Shown one piece after another: positions 3-6,220 of a stretch of 6,220 nucleotides of DNA (position 1 is its first letter; each line of letters opens with the position of its first letter). The translations under genes were made by a program, and so were the position numbers. Below the pieces are notes generated by a model, which saw only the letters and a list, made by a program, of their open reading frames with translations, searched no databases and had not been told where the DNA came from. The DNA is from a virus (taxonomy: Duplodnaviria > Heunggongvirae > Uroviricota > Caudoviricetes), in IMG/VR virus record IMGVR_UViG_2537562091_000003; one strand, given 5' to 3'.

Positions 3-449
3 ACAGATGAAGGCTGGCTGTATCTGGCAGTGGTCATTGACCTGTGGTCACGTGCCGTTATTGGCTGGTCAATGTCGCCACGCATGACGGCGCAACTGGC
101 CTGCGATGCCCTGCAGATGGCGCTGTGGCGGCGTAAGAGGCCCCGGAACGTTATCGTTCACACGGACCGTGGAGGCCAGTACTGTTCAGCAGATTATCAG
201 GCGCAACTGAAGCGGCATAATCTGCGTGGAAGTATGAGCGCAAAAGGTTGCTGCTACGATAATGCCTGCGTGGAAAGCTTCTTTCATTCGCTGAAAGTGG
301 AATGTATCCATGGAGAACACTTTATCAGCCGGGAAATAATGCGGGCAACGGTGTTTAATTATATCGAATGTGATTACAATCGGTGGCGGCGGCACAGTTG
401 GTGTGGCGGCCTCAGTCCGGAACAATTTGAAAACCAGAACCTCGCTTAG
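3..449 (+). CDS. insF: IS3-family transposase OrfB (DDE integrase catalytic region), C-terminal part; 5' end lies outside the window
   Basis: Frame-3 translation is open from base 3 ([24 protein letters not shown]...[14 protein letters not shown]...[15 protein letters not shown]...[14 protein letters not shown]) to TAG 447-449. It contains the second D and the E of the DDE motif in the contexts typical of IS3 OrfB. The M at 30 in the ORF track is an internal GTG (Val), not the true start. Confidence 0.88.
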
Positions 450-1746: not shown

Positions 1747-1951
1747 TCATTTTCACTTTCTTAAATCTAACGACAGACGGCTAACATTTAAGTATTGTGA
1801 AATATTATCAAATGTAATCATCATTGATTTACAAAAGATACATTTTGCCCCGAAAGGATTCCTGTCAGAAACATCAAAAGATGATGTTCTATACTGAGAA
1901 CCATGGCAACACGGGCATCTAAAGTGAATATGGTTTGTAATATTTTCTACC

Positions 1952-2164
1952 TCAAAGTGCCACAACATGAACAGCCGCGGGGCCTTTAGGTCCGTTCTCA
2001 ATACCAAATTCGACTTCCTGATTCTCAGTTAACGTTTTGAAATCGTTGCTCTGAATAGCTGAGAAATGGACAAACACATCTTTGCTACCATCTTTCGGCG
2101 TGATGAAACCAAAACCTTTTTCAGGGTTAAACCATTTCACTAAACCAGTCATTTTGTTAGACAT
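1952..2164 (-). CDS. cspI: cold-shock protein, CspA family (CspI-like), 70 aa
   Basis: Translation [70 protein letters not shown] carries the RNP1 (KGFGFI) and RNP2 (VFVHF) motifs of the cold-shock domain and matches CspI as recalled. SD AAGG precedes tandem ATG ATG; the second ATG (2164) gives the canonical MSNKM N-terminus. Confidence 0.92.
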
Positions 2165-2344
2165 CATTATTACCTTTTGAAGAAGTTAGCCCTTGGGCAG
2201 AATGGTCCGAAAAAAAATATCAGAGAGAAAAACCAACAAGGAAATCTCAAGAGGTACAAATAATAAAATTATAACAATGACTGCTTCAGATAATTTTGTA
2301 ACAAACCAGAACACCATTAACGCATGATTAACCAACCATAGCAA
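2165..2344 (-). promoter_or_regulatory. cspI promoter and long 5' untranslated leader (cspA-type)
   Basis: Minus strand has -35 TTGCTA (+ coords 2344-2339), a 17-bp spacer and -10 GTTAAT (2321-2316), in an arrangement resembling the cspA promoter (TTGCAT-17-CTTAAT). The predicted leader is about 145 nt. Just upstream of the SD the leader contains GCCCAAGGGC...AAAGGTAATA, parallel to cspA GCCGAAAGGC...AAAGGTAATA. An AT-rich UP-like region lies upstream (2345-2460). Confidence 0.5.
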
Positions 2345-2527: not shown

Positions 2528-3555
<1,028 letters not shown>

Positions 3556-3668
3556 GGATATTTATCAGGATTTATCGGCTTCAAATCCCCGGATATGTTA
3601 AATCTTACCTCATCAGTGATGGGCACTGGCGGGAGGAGGATGTCAATCTGATAAACACAGAGGCGACT

Positions 3669-3929
3669 ATGGATTACACAAATCTACCAAAACAAACTTT
3701 TGCTGATTTAATCGCACTCAGGCAAGCAGTCGTAGCTCTAATCAACTTGTTGCCGGAGAAGGAAAAGGAATTAGTTAAAGCGCTTCTTAACAGAACTGCC
3801 GCCGATTTTTCATCATATCCACTGACAGATGACCTTGCGGACCTTCCTGAATTAATTGCAGCGTCCGCCAATAAGCTTACTGAAGAGATTTACCCTCCTC
3901 AAAAATCTTCACAAAATTCCTGCGAGTAA
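3669..3929 (+). CDS. hypothetical acidic small protein (86 aa), convergent to the lysis operon
   Basis: ATG 3669 is preceded by AGAGG with a 5-nt spacer. The product (MDYTNLPKQTFADLIALRQAVVALINLLPEKEKELVKALLNRTAADF...) looks like a real helical protein, not low-complexity. It occupies an otherwise unexplained 321-bp gap between the 183-aa gene and the lysozyme. Its 3' end overlaps the 3' end of the 183-aa gene by 53 bp. The competing minus-strand ORF 3674-3871 is Ser/Ala/Arg-rich and looks like an antisense artefact. Confidence 0.4.
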   Translation: MDYTNLPKQTFADLIALRQAVVALINLLPEKEKELVKALLNRTAADFSSYPLTDDLADLPELIAASANKLTEEIYPPQKSSQNSCE

Positions 3930-4428
3930 CTTCAATGCAATAATCGTAAAACGCCGCAAACTGCTCATCGCGGCGTTTTTTTTCATCTTCAGAAGGAATC
4001 AGCACCGACAATTTTTTATTCAGATCAGCGACGCTGCCCTCCAGTTTTTCAATGGGCGATTCAATATCATCTTTTTCTGACCGCAATGCCGTCGGTGGCG
4101 TCTTCAGAGAACCAGTAATTCTTCCCGGTAGCTTTCCTTTGTAGGTTATCCACACATTCTGCGCCTCTAAAATTATGGGGCGCTTTTCCGGCGACTGCTC
4201 ATCCCCTTCACATAACCCGGCAGCAACATCCAGGAAGACCTGTCTGATGCTCCTTCTGGCTGCTGCCTCATAAAACTCCAGCGCAGCTCCTTCAACACGG
4301 TCCATGGCGACATCCAGGCCAAAAATTTCACCGTCAAAGCGTTCTTTGTCCTGTAAGGCTACAGTTACCGTAACTTTATTCTCAAAATTACGGACTCCTT
4401 TCACAACCAGTTCATAGTCTTGAGTCAT
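3877..4428 (-). CDS. uncharacterised phage protein (183 aa) in the holin-endolysin slot; possibly a DUF1327/YdfR-type protein
   Basis: ATG 4428 lies 4 nt after the holin stop, with GAGGAGAG overlapping the end of the holin gene, indicating translational coupling. No transmembrane segment or catalytic motif was recognised. In Qin of E. coli K-12 the gene between essQ and rrrQ is ydfR; the family assignment is by position and vague recall only. Confidence 0.8.
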   Translation of the reverse strand: MTQDYELVVKGVRNFENKVTVTVALQDKERFDGEIFGLDVAMDRVEGAALEFYEAAARRSIRQVFLDVAAGLCEGDEQSPEKRPIILEAQNVWITYKGKLPGRITGSLKTPPTALRSEKDDIESPIEKLEGSVADLNKKLSVLIPSEDEKKRRDEQFAAFYDYCIEVTRRNFVKIFEEGKSLQ

Positions 4429-4432
4429 TGGA

Positions 4433-4648
4433 TTACTCTCCTCTCGCAGCCTTACGCCTGTCTTCTTTAATCTTGAAATAAAGATTTGTCAGATACGTCA
4501 GCATGCCAAATACCAGACTACCCAATACACCTATTGCCGCCCACTGTGAGGGCGTGACTTTATCGAGCAACTGTAAAAACCAGTAGCCAGCACTGCCTGC
4601 AGAGGTGCTGTAGGCGATGCCCGTTGTTAACTTATCCATGGATTTCAT
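4433..4648 (-). CDS. class II holin, phage 21 S-type pinholin with dual-start motif (71/68 aa)
   Basis: Translation [71 protein letters not shown] is near-identical to phage 21 S (S21-71) as recalled. Two in-frame ATGs (M1 and M4: MKSM) form the antiholin/holin dual-start. SD GGAGGTGAGG lies upstream. The track ORF extending to 4732 is an unsupported N-terminal extension. Confidence 0.92.
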
Positions 4649-4838: not shown

Positions 4839-5552
4839 CTAAGAAAATCTTGATAAATATTGGTGCGGAGGCACACCAAAATATCCTCTAAAAACACTTA
4901 CAAAATATGATGCATTGTCATACCCGCATATTCCCGCCACCTTGCCGACAGTATGGTTACTGTAGATCAATAATCTTTGCGCCATCATCATTCGTTCTTC
5001 AAGAATTAATTTACTAAACGATAACCCTTCGTCTTTTAATTTTCTTTTTAACAAACTCTCGCTCATATATAATCTTGAAGATATATCACAAAGTCTCCAT
5101 GACGCTGAGATATCCGAGTGAATAATAGCCTTAACTTTACAACCTAAGCTATTAAGACTTCCGAACAAAAAACTTTGCACTATTTTCTCTGAAGATAAGA
5201 CAGCAAGACATGCAAGTGATATTTGATTTCTAACTACATCCACGGTTTTGCTATCACAATTCAAGCATGCAACCAAGTTCTTTAACAATGAAAAATCTTC
5301 ACATTCTACTATCAAGTATGACGGATAAAACCTTCTTACAGAAAAAGGTGAGAGTGTGTAGTTTTTAAAGAAATCATTAACTGTTTTCTCCTCAACATCT
5401 ACGATCATTAGATGATCTGTATTTGACGAAAAAAGATCTTTTAAATTGTATTCAATGAGGACAGCATTTCCTTTTTTAAACAAAATATCTTCTTTACCAA
5501 TTCGGACACCAAACGAGTTCAACACCAAAATGATAGAACATATGTATGGCAT
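4839..5552 (-). CDS. AraC/XylS-family transcriptional regulator (AppY/EnvY/Rns-like), AT-rich moron
   Basis: C-terminal 100 aa carry the family's double helix-turn-helix signature (WRLCDISSRLYMSESLLKRKLKDEGLSFSKLILEERMMMAQRLL...GICGYDNASYFVSVFRGYFGVPPHQY), aligning by eye with AppY/EnvY. The gene is markedly more AT-rich than the flanking lysis genes. Preferred start is ATG 5552 with SD AGGTGG 5 nt upstream; the track's start at 5561 is a GTG placed too close to that SD. Confidence 0.85.
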   Translation of the reverse strand: MPYICSIILVLNSFGVRIGKEDILFKKGNAVLIEYNLKDLFSSNTDHLMIVDVEEKTVNDFFKNYTLSPFSVRRFYPSYLIVECEDFSLLKNLVACLNCDSKTVDVVRNQISLACLAVLSSEKIVQSFLFGSLNSLGCKVKAIIHSDISASWRLCDISSRLYMSESLLKRKLKDEGLSFSKLILEERMMMAQRLLIYSNHTVGKVAGICGYDNASYFVSVFRGYFGVPPHQYLSRFS

Positions 5553-5732
5553 ATTATCCACCTGATATCATTGGGGTTACACCAGGTAAGTATAGGTGGA
5601 AAATCAATATTCGCCAGTTCAACAATAAGGAAAATCTCATTGCATCACAACTATAAAACCATGTGTTTAACTCACAAAAAACAAATCATTAAACTAATCT
5701 GTTATATTATAATAGCTGCGTGCAATAATAAT

Positions 5733-5765: not shown

Positions 5766-6220
5766 GTAATGACTCCAACTTATTGATAGTGTTTTATGTT
5801 CAGATAATGCCCGATGACTTTGTCATGCAGCTCCACCGATTTTGAGAACGACAGCGACTTCCGTCCCAGCCGTGCCAGGTGCTGCCTCAGATTCAGGTTA
5901 TGCCGCTCAATTCGCTGCGTATATCGCTTGCTGATTACGTGCAGCTTTCCCTTCAGGCGGGATTCATACAGCGGCCAGCCATCCGTCATCCATATCACCA
6001 CGTCAAAGGGTGACAGCAGGCTCATAAGACGCCCCAGCGTCGCCATAGTGCGTTCACCGAATACGTGCGCAACAACCGTCTTCCGTAGCCTGTCATACGC
6101 GTAAAACAGCCAGCGCTGGCGCGATTTAGCCCCGACATAGCCCCACTGTTCGTCCATTTCCGCGCAGACGATGACGTCACTGCCCGGCTGTATGCGCGAG
6201 GTTACCGACTGCGGCCTGAG
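5766..6220 (-). mobile_element. IS1 insertion sequence, insB-proximal end with terminal inverted repeat; element continues beyond the window end
   Basis: 5766-5788 ggtaatgactccaacttattgat is the IS1 terminal inverted repeat; the InsB reading frame follows on the minus strand and is still open at 6220. The A6C frameshift site and insA would lie just outside the window. Confidence 0.92.
5780..6220 (-). CDS. insB: IS1 transposase InsB reading frame (part of the InsAB' fusion transposase), 5' partial
   Basis: Minus-strand frame reads [146 protein letters not shown], recognised as IS1 InsB. Stop TAA at 5782-5780; the frame is open to the window edge. Confidence 0.92.

What the first reader, a model, noticed from the sequence alone, without database searches (positions are those of the whole stretch)
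3669..3929. Convergent 86-aa ORF embedded in the lysis operon, overlapping the 3' end of the 183-aa gene by 53 bp
Lysis genes are normally tightly packed, but here there is a 321-bp gap between the 183-aa gene and the endolysin. The gap is filled on the opposite strand by an 86-aa ORF with a well-spaced SD (AGAGG-5nt-ATG) and a protein-like acidic helical sequence. Its transcription would be antisense to the lysis operon, which suggests an antisense or anti-lysis regulatory module, a small immunity or antitoxin-like protein, or a moron. The alternative is that the 183-aa gene's C-terminal extension and this ORF are competing interpretations of the same DNA.
Basis: seen in the sequence. Interest (0 to 1): 0.55.

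Follow-up and report, generated by a model that had tools for sequence, protein, structure and literature searches.

The report
Opposite-strand moron gene in lysis cassette
The 86-codon ORF is a real, conserved small prophage gene of unknown function, built like a "moron" and sitting in a cassette-swapping hotspot beside the endolysin gene, always tail-to-tail with a partner gene whose end it overlaps, which makes it a useful but not extraordinary lead.

Summary
ORF 3669-3929 (+, 86 aa) has AGAGG-5 nt-ATG, fills the 321-bp ydfR/endolysin gap and overlaps the 183-aa gene by 53 bp. It is a real gene, already catalogued as hypothetical (phrog_2572, RefSeq WP_001557934.1). An exhaustive search found 41-57% identical homologues in three clades, with between-clade dN/dS of 0.2-0.35. 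Only this frame is stop-free in all clades.

The two readings do not compete. The C-terminal extension of the 183-aa gene ("B") is also coding: four in-frame length variants exist, and stand-alone 67-73-aa versions. A and B travel together, convergent and overlapping by 53-59 bp, in four genomic contexts.

A hairpin follows A's stop and lies inside B. In this clade it carries a T8 tract.

Upstream lies a conserved motif and -10-like hexamer. In E. coli phages the same leader precedes at least five unrelated small opposite-strand ORFs, or none. This is moron architecture in a cargo-exchange hotspot.

Function is unknown. The model is an acidic three-helix bundle with no informative fold or family match. 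Promoter use and expression are untested. Nothing supports an anti-lysis or antitoxin role.

The parts
3558..3576 (+). Conserved motif ATATTTATCAGGATTTATC: two TTTATC(A/G)G units 10 bp apart, directly abutting the endolysin start codon (CAT, 3553-3555). The second TTTATC (3571-3576) is the candidate -35.
   Evidence: The motif is invariant in all three clades of the A gene, including contexts with no endolysin next to it. In an IMG/VR scan, 107 of 109 instances abut an endolysin start. It is also present where no + strand cargo exists, so it may serve the endolysin as well or instead.
3594..3599 (+). Candidate -10 hexamer TATGTT, 17 nt after TTTATC. This is a weak sigma-70-like promoter (3/6 plus 4/6).
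   Evidence: TATGTT, TATTGT or TATATT occurs at this fixed offset in 43 of 49 unique leader variants. One further variant carries the same hexamer shifted by a 1-nt insertion. Five variants lack it, all without + cargo (L114 type and L115/L132 type). It falls below the threshold of the promoter scanner, which reports nothing here. The assignment is inferred, not shown.
3613..3629 (+). Leader stem-loop (T)CAGTG-ATGGG-CACTG(G). It reads GCCAGTG-GTGGG-CACTGGC in most relatives.
   Evidence: It is shared by the leaders of the A, C3, C4, C5 and C6 cargo types. Substitutions do not discriminate between the two strands and no compensatory pair was seen. This is an observation only.
3659..3663 (+). 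Shine-Dalgarno AGAGG, 5 nt before the ATG.
   Evidence: An SD-like AAGGA 6 nt before the start (GTG or ATG) is kept in the other two clades.
3669..3929 (+). Gene A: 86-aa acidic protein modelled as a three-helix bundle (phrog_2572; RefSeq WP_001557934.1, 'hypothetical protein').
   Evidence: Between-clade dN 0.3-0.45, dS 0.9-2, omega 0.2-0.35. It is the only stop-free frame in all clades. The AF2 model has helices 8-26, 30-48 and 56-74 at pLDDT 71.
3877..3929 (.). 53-bp 3'-3' overlap of gene A with the 183-aa gene.
   Evidence: The overlap is 53 bp in the E. coli clade and 59 bp in the two other clades, in every locus examined. In the overlap, A's frame looks more constrained (omega 0.5-0.7) than B's (1.1-2.4) between clades. 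These estimates are biased by the overlap itself.
3948..3983 (+). Hairpin AAAACGCCGC-12 nt-GCGGCGTTTT followed by a T run (T8 = 3976-3983), 19 nt after A's stop. It is a candidate intrinsic terminator of A and lies inside the coding sequence of the convergent gene (KKRRDEQFAAFY).
   Evidence: RNA fold gives -15.9 kcal/mol, z -2.6 on the + strand and -14.6 kcal/mol for the core. Eight core pairs are kept in all clades, with one compensatory GC->AU change in clade 3 that costs R->H and A->V in the minus frame. Shuffle statistics are not significant because only three clades vary. The T tract is strong only in this clade. The terminator scanner missed it because its loop limit is 8 nt.
3877..4092 (-). 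Module B: residues about 113-183 of the 183-aa ORF, a helical segment plus the conserved tail KKRRDEQFAAFYDYCIEVTRRNFVKIFEEGKSLQ. It is the convergent partner of A.
   Evidence: In-frame length variants of 169, 171, 176 and 211 aa all rejoin the same tail. It is a stand-alone 67-aa gene between holin and A in L093 and a stand-alone 73-aa gene after the Rz-like gene in Salmonella prophages. Within-clade omega is 0.15-0.7. PHROG hits are phrog_2091, phrog_36381 and phrog_15975.
4093..4428 (-). DUF1327 (YdfR) domain, fused here to module B in one 183-aa ORF (3877-4428).
   Evidence: Pfam PF07041, E 1.6e-43, residues 1-112. The full length matches phrog_2091. PGAP calls it a truncated pseudogene, which the in-frame variants contradict.

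Best explanation
The ORF is a genuine gene ('A'). It belongs to a self-contained, horizontally exchanged accessory cassette (a moron) inserted head-on into the late/lysis operon of a phage-21-type lysis cassette, between the DUF1327 (ydfR) gene and the SAR-type endolysin gene.

Proposed working, with shown and inferred steps marked:

(1) Transcription starts at a weak promoter in the conserved leader next to the endolysin start (TTTATC-17 nt-TATGTT). It runs opposite to the lysis genes. This step is inferred.

(2) The mRNA carries its own SD and ATG, and encodes an 86-aa acidic protein modelled as a three-helix bundle. That the frame is coding and under purifying selection is shown by comparative sequence; translation itself was not observed.

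(3) Transcription ends at a hairpin plus U8 that lies inside the coding region of the convergent gene B. The 3' roughly 105 nt of the A mRNA is therefore antisense to the end of B. The structure is shown; termination is inferred.

(4) Because the unit is autonomous, A would be made when the late operon is silent, in the lysogen or cryptic prophage or early after entry. Q-antiterminated late transcription running head-on through it would then shut it down. This step is inferred.

(5) The protein most likely acts by binding another protein: a host factor, a competing-phage factor, or the tail of B. It is small, soluble, acidic and helical, without catalytic or membrane features. This step is inferred and the target is unknown.

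A is one of at least six unrelated small cargo genes that occupy the same slot behind the same leader. That pattern marks it as a dispensable accessory gene rather than part of the core lysis machinery.
For: Real gene:
- Full-length match to phrog_2572 and a RefSeq CDS.
- The identical protein occurs on at least 1000 contigs.
- The module is present in 294-353 of 5426 complete E. coli genomes and in inducible phages PhiR63_1, PhiR12 and 2H10.
- Exhaustive phmmer and a profile search found 38-57% identical homologues.
- Between-clade omega is 0.2-0.35 with saturated dS.
- It is the only frame open in all clades.
- Start position, SD and acidic charge are conserved.

Cassette or moron:
- It is absent from collinear cassettes such as L114.
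- 40 of 109 sampled slots are empty.
- GC is 41% against 49-52% in the flanks.
- Hairpin plus U-rich tracts follow A, C5 and C6 on the + strand (-12 to -19 kcal/mol).
- A leader of about 75 nt is shared by cargo families phrog_2572, 10490, 1853, 18136 and 25324. Cargo C2 (phrog_2411) shares only its first ~45 nt.
- The -10-like hexamer is present wherever a cargo or leader remnant is present, and absent from the no-cargo leader types.

Not a frame artefact: the partner gene B is independently conserved.
Against: - No promoter reaches the scanner's consensus threshold upstream of A in any clade. The proposed -35 is only 3/6.
- The TTTATCAGGnTTTATC repeat also occurs where there is no cargo, so it may belong to the endolysin.
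- No transcript, ribosome or peptide evidence was available.
- Within the E. coli clade, selection on the protein is weak (omega about 0.65, P=0.15; some close pairs at or above 1).
- Four unique sequences have ATG->ACG at the start and one has Q19*.
- The U tract after the hairpin is weak in clades 2 and 3.
- The same hairpin-encoding motif (KKRRDEQFAAFYDYC) occurs in a 329-aa DUF1327 protein without A, so the hairpin is not exclusive to A.
Confidence: 0.62

Rival explanations
1. Lysis-timing or antisense regulator. A's transcript, and possibly its protein, exists to modulate the late operon. Convergent transcription and the roughly 105-nt RNA duplex with the 3' end of ydfR/B would trigger transcriptional interference or RNase III/RNase E processing. 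That would uncouple or damp expression of the downstream endolysin and spanin genes and delay lysis.
For: The 3'-3' overlap (53-59 bp) and a hairpin inside B are conserved in every context. A lies between holin/ydfR and endolysin, so the late mRNA must carry antisense-A. The DUF1327 protein YdfR was reported to bind the RNase E catalytic domain and possibly RNA (PMC13232886), which links the neighbourhood to RNA decay.
Against: About a third of sampled cassettes have an empty slot and the rest carry unrelated cargo, which is not expected of a core timing device. In Salmonella prophages A-B sits after the last lysis gene, next to cos and the terminase genes, where no lysis gene lies downstream. 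Purifying selection acts on the amino-acid sequence, so the protein matters and not only the RNA. The product has no holin-like or antiholin-like membrane segment.
Confidence: 0.15
2. Cognate protein pair. A is a neutraliser or immunity partner of B (or the reverse), in the manner of a toxin-antidote or inhibitor-target pair. They are co-inherited because they work together. A is made in the lysogen and B only late.
For: A is never found without the B tail in the 13 representative loci, across four different gene neighbourhoods and three kinds of N-terminal partner for B. A is acidic (-5.5) and the B tail is rich in K/R. Another cargo (C5) also comes with its own specific ydfR tail.
Against: The linkage may be purely physical. 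A's last 18-19 codons and its terminator are the B tail on the other strand, so no intact A can move without it. B diverges much faster than A (between-clade dN 0.9-1.2 against 0.3-0.45). Convergent orientation is not the operon layout of type II toxin-antitoxin pairs. There are no PADLOC hits. B-like tails occur without A.
Confidence: 0.12
3. Anti-defence or superinfection-related cargo. The slot is an arms-race hotspot, and A is a small acidic protein inhibitor of a host defence or of a competing phage.
For: Six unrelated small ORF families alternate behind one leader. Omega near or above 1 between close relatives, against 0.25 between clades, hints at episodic diversification, though the counts are small. 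The size, charge and helical-bundle build are typical of such inhibitors. There is a weak sequence match to AcrIIC4 (E 0.12).
Against: The AcrIIC4 match is not significant and Foldseek finds no structural match. No cargo family has any annotated function. No regulator gene of the Aca type is adjacent. The location inside the late region is atypical for early-acting inhibitors.
Confidence: 0.08
4. Non-functional or decaying ORF: an open frame kept by recent common descent, or by constraints on the other strand, with no product.
For: Within-clade omega is not significantly below 1. Start-codon loss and a nonsense variant exist. The window itself is an IS-flanked prophage remnant.
Against: Homologues at 38-57% identity keep length, start, SD, charge and helix pattern with omega 0.2-0.35. 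208 of the ORF's 261 bp overlap no minus-strand ORF that is conserved in other clades. The ORF is identical in inducible phages.
Confidence: 0.03

Closest known systems
Morons of lambdoid phages (as defined for HK97/HK022 by Juhala, Hendrix and colleagues; recalled from memory, not re-read here)
   Same: It is extra DNA between two genes that are adjacent in related phages. It has its own terminator-like hairpin and a candidate promoter. Its GC content is lower than the flanks. It is dispensable and variable between relatives.
   Different: It is inserted inside the lysis cassette and head-on to it. Its 3' end and terminator are embedded in the coding sequence of the convergent gene. The slot offers a shared leader to several alternative cargo genes. 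Expression from the prophage is not shown.
Lambda bor (lysogen-expressed gene next to Rz, transcribed opposite to the late operon; recalled from memory)
   Same: It has the opposite orientation to the late genes at the lysis end of the genome. In Salmonella prophages A occupies the position after the Rz-like gene and before cos and the terminase genes.
   Different: Bor is a lipoprotein. A has no signal peptide, lipobox or hydrophobic segment (its longest hydrophobic run is 6 residues). There is no sequence similarity. A overlaps its convergent neighbour.
Convergent antisense pairs with 3' overlap (lambda OOP RNA against cII; type I toxin-antitoxin pairs such as txpA/RatA of Bacillus subtilis; recalled from memory)
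   Same: Two convergent transcription units have 3' ends that overlap by tens of bases, so complementary RNAs must form if both are made.
   Different: Here both partners are protein-coding and under amino-acid selection. Neither product is a small hydrophobic toxin. No RNA-level regulation has been shown.
AcrIIC4-like small helical anti-CRISPR proteins
   Same: The size (86-93 aa), all-helical build, acidic charge and prophage origin are similar. The profile of the A family gives a weak hit (E 0.12 over residues 25-86).
YdfR/DUF1327 (the neighbour, not the ORF itself)
   Same: The 183-aa convergent gene carries a full DUF1327 domain. K-12 YdfR binds the RNase E N-terminal domain through residues 1-72 (PMC13232886).
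   Different: K-12 YdfR is 103 aa and lacks module B. The A gene is absent from K-12 Qin (K-12-type records match only 824/830-1101 of the 1101-bp query).

Membership tests
Moron (autonomous accessory cassette in a temperate phage) | Extra DNA present in some genomes and absent from otherwise collinear relatives | tested here: met
   L114 has ydfR 63 bp from the endolysin with no + ORF. 40 of 109 sampled slots are empty.
Moron (autonomous accessory cassette in a temperate phage) | Own transcription terminator | tested here: met
   A 10-bp stem plus U8 lies 19 nt after the stop (-14.6 to -15.9 kcal/mol, z -2.6). This is in silico only, and the simple scanner did not flag it because its loop limit is 8 nt.
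Moron (autonomous accessory cassette in a temperate phage) | Own promoter | tested here: inconclusive
   A conserved TTTATC-17 nt-TATGTT tracks cargo presence. It scores only 7/12, and no scanner hit was found upstream of A in three clades.
Moron (autonomous accessory cassette in a temperate phage) | Base composition different from the flanking phage genes | tested here: met
   A is 41.4% GC (GC3 36%), against 51.7% for the endolysin and 48.8% for the DUF1327 domain.
Moron (autonomous accessory cassette in a temperate phage) | Expressed from the repressed prophage | not testable with these tools
   No transcriptome or proteome data could be consulted. A literature search for the accession found nothing.
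Type II toxin-antitoxin pair | Two co-directional, co-transcribed adjacent genes, with family signatures for toxin or antitoxin | tested here: not met
   The genes are convergent. There are no Pfam, NCBIfam or PADLOC hits for A or B.
Type I toxin-antitoxin / antisense RNA pair | A small hydrophobic toxin peptide and a non-coding antisense RNA | tested here: not met
   Both partners are soluble proteins under amino-acid selection. No Rfam family matches in the region. Only the convergent 3' overlap is shared.
Holin / antiholin / spanin (core lysis proteins) | A transmembrane segment, signal-anchor or lipobox | tested here: not met
   The longest hydrophobic run is 6 residues and GRAVY is -0.2. 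The model is a soluble helical bundle.
Anti-CRISPR AcrIIC4 | Significant sequence or fold similarity | tested here: not met
phrog_2572 (protein family of unknown function) | Full-length match to the family profile | tested here: met
   E 4.4e-53 over residues 1-86 of an 86-position profile. The distant homologues P0019 and P0023 also match it.
DUF1823 (label given to the homologue in the PhiR12 phage records) | Pfam PF08853 match above the gathering score | tested here: not met
   12.9 bits against a cut-off of 25, E 0.13. The label in those records is not supported.

The most novel reading that the evidence does not exclude
The DNA next to the endolysin start codon is a dedicated expression platform: a shared promoter and stem-loop leader that reads against the lysis operon. 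Lambdoid phages of E. coli use it to swap small inhibitor genes. At least six unrelated families, all of unknown function, occupy it.

Each cargo brings its own C-terminal tail for the convergent ydfR gene, so cargo and tail would form cognate pairs. On this reading, A would be a new family of small acidic protein inhibitors (anti-defence, superinfection-related, or an antidote to its partner B). Its synthesis would be hard-wired to stop when late transcription collides with it.

If correct, this defines a new accessory-gene hotspot. It would also give a functional handle on DUF1327/YdfR, an RNase E-binding protein of unknown role.
Probability: 0.15. Interest if true: 0.72.

Novelty: new member of a known kind. 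Interest (0 to 1): 0.42.

Why it matters
It settles an annotation conflict. Phage records call only the 183-aa gene or call both genes, while RefSeq calls the 86-aa gene and labels ydfR a truncated pseudogene. The comparative data say both are real and that they overlap.

It also shows that a spot inside the supposedly compact lysis cassette of phage-21-type prophages is a cargo-exchange site. The module is carried by roughly 5-6% of complete E. coli genomes. The site holds a shared leader and several orphan small-protein families. Such sites have repeatedly turned out to hold defence, anti-defence or host-conversion genes, so these families are reasonable candidates for screening.

The always-overlapping convergent A/B pair is a clean natural case for studying how two coding frames and an RNA hairpin share the same DNA. 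None of this changes current understanding unless a function is found.

Tried and rejected
- **Family searches.** Pfam, NCBIfam and PADLOC gave nothing for A, for B or for the other cargo ORFs. PHROGs gave only families of unknown function.
- **AcrIIC4 lead.** It was rejected as not significant.
- **TPR/CHAT protein.** A 975-aa eukaryotic-type protein hit by phmmer (P0020, 8 stretches) is repeat-driven similarity, not homology.
- **Six-frame test within the E. coli clade.** It cannot separate the + frame from the antisense frame, because the third codon positions coincide, and it is not significant. It was superseded by the between-clade comparison.
- **Strand assignment by G-U wobble.** Neither hairpin could be assigned: about 3:1 for the terminator hairpin and about 5:4 for the leader hairpin.
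- **Homology among cargo ORFs.** A, C2 and C3 show no detectable homology to each other.
- **Rfam.** There is no known RNA family in the region.
- **GTDB representative genomes.** The scan returned only one E. coli locus.
- **Literature.** Nothing was found on this ORF. The 'DUF1823' label in phage records is a sub-threshold hit.
- **Possible regulator site.** On the minus strand the 10-bp-phased repeat reads ATAAA-N5-ATAAA, which resembles response-regulator direct repeats such as the CpxR consensus GTAAA-N5-GTAAA as I recall it. I did not test this and make no claim.

Full report
**1. What the window is**

The window is an IS-flanked remnant of a lambdoid, Qin-like prophage. A 1.1-kb segment around the finding (3400-4500) is 100% identical to E. 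coli B-lineage strain AS19. The minus strand carries a phage-21-type lysis cassette:
- a class II holin (Phage_holin_2_1; annotated start gives 4433-4648);
- a 183-aa DUF1327/YdfR-family ORF (3877-4428);
- a phage lysozyme (3022-3555);
- a DUF2514 Rz-like gene (2528-3025).

These are followed by cspI, ynfQ, ynfN and gnsB.

**2.

- ORF 3669-3929 (+) encodes 86 aa.
- AGAGG lies at 3659-3663, 5 nt before the ATG.
- The ydfR-to-endolysin gap (3556-3876) is 321 bp.
- The overlap with the 183-aa ORF (3877-3929) is 53 bp.

Annotators disagree about this DNA. RefSeq/PGAP calls the 86-aa ORF (WP_001557934.1, hypothetical) and marks ydfR as a pseudogene "missing C-terminus". The records for phages PhiR63_1 and 2H10 call only the 183-aa gene. 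PhiR12_2 calls both. Both products match full-length PHROG families of unknown function, phrog_2572 and phrog_2091.

**3. Is the + frame coding?**

Close relatives alone do not answer this. I compared 63 unique sequences from IMG/VR, phage and genome records. The ORF region is 92-100% identical, which is more conserved than its flanks. The 39 single-site variants split 15 synonymous to 24 non-synonymous. That gives omega about 0.65 with P=0.15. The same count applies to the antisense frame whose third positions coincide. Four unique sequences have ATG->ACG and one has Q19*.

The decisive evidence came from an exhaustive phmmer search and a profile search. These found 89-93-aa homologues at 38-57% identity (P0019, P0021, P0023, P0025, P0026).

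There are three clades:
- c1, E. coli, 86 aa;
- c2, Salmonella prophages, 93 aa, GTG start;
- c3, metagenomic E. coli-like phages, 89-93 aa.

Between clades dS is saturated (0.9-2) while dN is 0.3-0.45, giving omega 0.2-0.35. For helices 1-2 omega is 0.14-0.43. In 13 representative loci the A frame is the only one of six without stops. The start position, an SD 5-6 nt upstream, 23 invariant residues and a net charge of -5.4 to -5.5 are all conserved. The family is narrow: 12 hits in 1.84 billion representative proteins. I conclude that A is a real protein-coding gene. Its within-clade drift and occasional inactivation are what one expects of a dispensable accessory gene.

**4. The minus frame is coding too**

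The C-terminal extension of the 183-aa ORF occurs in in-frame length variants of 169, 171, 176 and 211 aa. All of them rejoin the tail KKRRDEQFAAFYDYCIEVTRRNFVK(I/A)FEE(G/S)KSLQ*.

The same module, which I call B, also exists as a stand-alone gene:
- 67 aa, directly after the holin in L093;
- 73 aa, start-stop coupled to the DUF2514 Rz-like gene in Salmonella prophages.

In c3 it is fused to DUF1327 (243 aa) or to another N-terminal part (144 aa). Within clades, B's non-overlapping part has omega 0.15-0.7.

**5. A and B form a mobile convergent pair**

In every locus examined, A and B are tail-to-tail and overlap by 53 bp (c1) or 59 bp (c2, c3). Four neighbourhoods were seen:
- holin, DUF1327::B, then A convergent, then endolysin (this window);
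- holin, B, then A convergent, then endolysin (L093);
- Rz-like gene, B, then A convergent, then cos and terminase (Salmonella, the place lambda uses for bor);
- a DUF3927/antiterminator context (L107).

A is the better-conserved partner: between-clade dN is 0.3-0.45 for A against 0.9-1.2 for B. In the overlap, A's frame also looks more constrained.

The linkage may be functional. It may equally be forced, because A's last 18-19 codons and its terminator are B's tail read on the other strand.

**6. The 3' hairpin**

Nineteen nt after A's stop lies AAAACGCCGC-12 nt-GCGGCGTTTT followed by further T's (T8 at 3976-3983). The fold gives -15.9 kcal/mol with z -2.6 on the + strand. On the minus strand the stem folds at least as well, but the U tract behind it is poor.

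Eight core pairs are kept in all three clades, even though synonymous sites elsewhere are saturated. Clade 3 carries one compensatory GC->AU change that costs R->H and A->V in B. With only three independent lineages, the shuffle controls are not significant. The U tract is strong only in c1.

The same motif also occurs in a 329-aa DUF1327 protein without A (L115). I read the hairpin as A's terminator in this clade. Confidence in that reading is moderate.

**7. The 5' side and the hotspot**

Directly after the endolysin start codon lies ATATTTATCAGGATTTATC (3558-3576). Seventeen nt after its second TTTATC comes TATGTT (3594-3599). Both are invariant across the three A clades, including contexts with no endolysin nearby.

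I scanned IMG/VR for the motif. The small ORFs found downstream, opposite to the lysis operon, fell into these groups:

| Cargo | Size | PHROG family | Instances |
|---|---|---|---|
| A family | 86-93 aa | phrog_2572 | 16 |
| C2 | 90 aa | phrog_2411 | 27 |
| C3 | 95 aa | phrog_10490 | 2 |
| C4 | 104 aa | phrog_1853 | at least 6 |
| C5 | 87-91 aa | phrog_18136 | at least 4 |
| C6 | 98 aa | phrog_25324 | 2 |
| none | - | - | 40 |

The cargo starts lie 103-126 nt from the motif. The families are unrelated to each other and have no Pfam match.

Cargo types A (c1), C3, C4, C5 and C6 share a leader of about 75 nt. It ends in the stem-loop GCCAGTG-GTGGG-CACTGGC, which in the window is 3613-3629. C2 shares only the first ~45 nt and has its own stem-loop further on. 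The -10-like hexamer is absent exactly from the leader types that have no cargo. C5 and C6 also end in + strand hairpins followed by U tracts. A and B are lower in GC than their flanks.

Together this is textbook moron architecture in a cassette-exchange hotspot. However, no promoter reaches the scanner's consensus threshold. The repeat itself also occurs without cargo. Promoter function therefore remains an inference.

**8. What the protein does is unknown**

AF2 gives a three-helix bundle (helices 8-26, 30-48, 56-74; pLDDT 71) with or without the alignment. Structure and sequence comparisons were uninformative:
- Foldseek against PDB: 0 hits.
- BFVD: nothing below E=1.
- Profile against PDB sequences: AcrIIC4 at E 0.12, not significant.
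- PADLOC: nothing.

All database names for the protein are "hypothetical protein". The only relevant experimental literature concerns the neighbour. [quoted passage not shown]

**9. Verdict**

The finding is real, and it is a gene. The best-supported account is an autonomous accessory cassette transcribed against the lysis operon. Its product is a small acidic helical protein, probably a binder of another protein. It would be made while the late operon is silent and switched off by head-on late transcription.

A lysis-timing or antisense role, a cognate A-B pair, and an anti-defence role remain possible and are ranked below. The module occurs in 294-353 of 5426 complete E. coli genomes. As a kind it is a known thing, a moron. 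The conserved overlap with a partner gene and the shared-leader cargo slot are features worth a follow-up experiment.

Noticed in passing
window 3877-4428 (-): RefSeq/PGAP annotates this ydfR-family gene as a pseudogene 'missing C-terminus', covering residues 1-112 only. Yet the 183-aa form matches phrog_2091 end to end, and in-frame variants of 169-211 aa keep the same tail. It is probably a mis-annotation, caused by a family model that covers only the DUF1327 domain.
   Followed up: yes
L088 1738-2430 (-); L138; L115 1699-2688 (-): The C-terminal extensions of DUF1327 genes are mosaics that track the opposite-strand cargo. Cargo C5 comes with the tail ...KKSTPTKNEVLAADEMKETIL...EHFQQP*. The 211-aa L088 protein carries that segment spliced in frame before the A-type tail. 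L115 has the KKRRDEQFAAFYDYC motif followed by an unrelated domain of about 130 aa and no + cargo.
   Followed up: partly
window 3640-3651 (+): A three-codon mini-ORF ATG TCA ATC TGA (MSI*) lies in A's leader, preceded in this clade by GGGAGGAGG. The ATGTCAATCTGATAA string is kept in both E. coli subclades. Its significance is unknown.
   Followed up: no
window 3558-3576: A 10-bp-phased direct repeat TTTATCAGG/TTTATCGG (ATAAA-N5-ATAAA on the other strand) abuts the endolysin start. It is kept even in cassettes with no opposite-strand cargo and in Salmonella contexts with no endolysin. It could be an operator for a tandem-binding regulator or an element of endolysin expression. It remains unexplained.
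   Followed up: partly
window 3750-3770 (+): The GAGAAGGAAAAGGAA (EKEKE) stretch of gene A shows in-frame indels of +6 and -6 nt in relatives (P0002, P0004). Other in-frame deletions occur near the C-terminus (P0009, P0010).
   Followed up: no
window 2578-2874 (-): An ORF embedded in another frame of the Rz-like gene contains [23 protein letters not shown], a signal peptide plus lipobox, followed by a proline-rich segment. This looks like an Rz1-type o-spanin. It is not annotated in the RefSeq record of the identical strain.
   Followed up: no
window 1906-2322 (-): A cspA-type thermoregulator (RF01766, 109.8 bits, E 3.5e-28) spans the cspI gene and its 5' UTR.
   Followed up: no
window 4839-5561 (-), 30-449 (+), 5780-6157 (-): A 240-aa AraC-family regulator (HTH_18/HTH_AraC) sits just upstream of the holin, where the late promoter and antiterminator would be expected. 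The region is bracketed by IS3-family and IS1-like transposase fragments. A terminator-like hairpin lies at 4770-4749 (-). The lysis operon here has probably lost its native late control.
   Followed up: no
L117 1501-1722; P0012, P0013: Some genomes carry A truncated after about 49-66 codons. L117 shows one case, an IS3-family insertion. This is consistent with a dispensable gene.
   Followed up: partly
L097 1255-1300; L102 about 4925-4970: In the Salmonella clade the leader of A contains a 10-bp inverted repeat, ATCCGAACCA...TGGTTCGGAT. It encloses the GTGGTGGGACACTG segment, and the repeat arms differ between L097 and L102. This may be a clade-specific 5' UTR structure.
   Followed up: no
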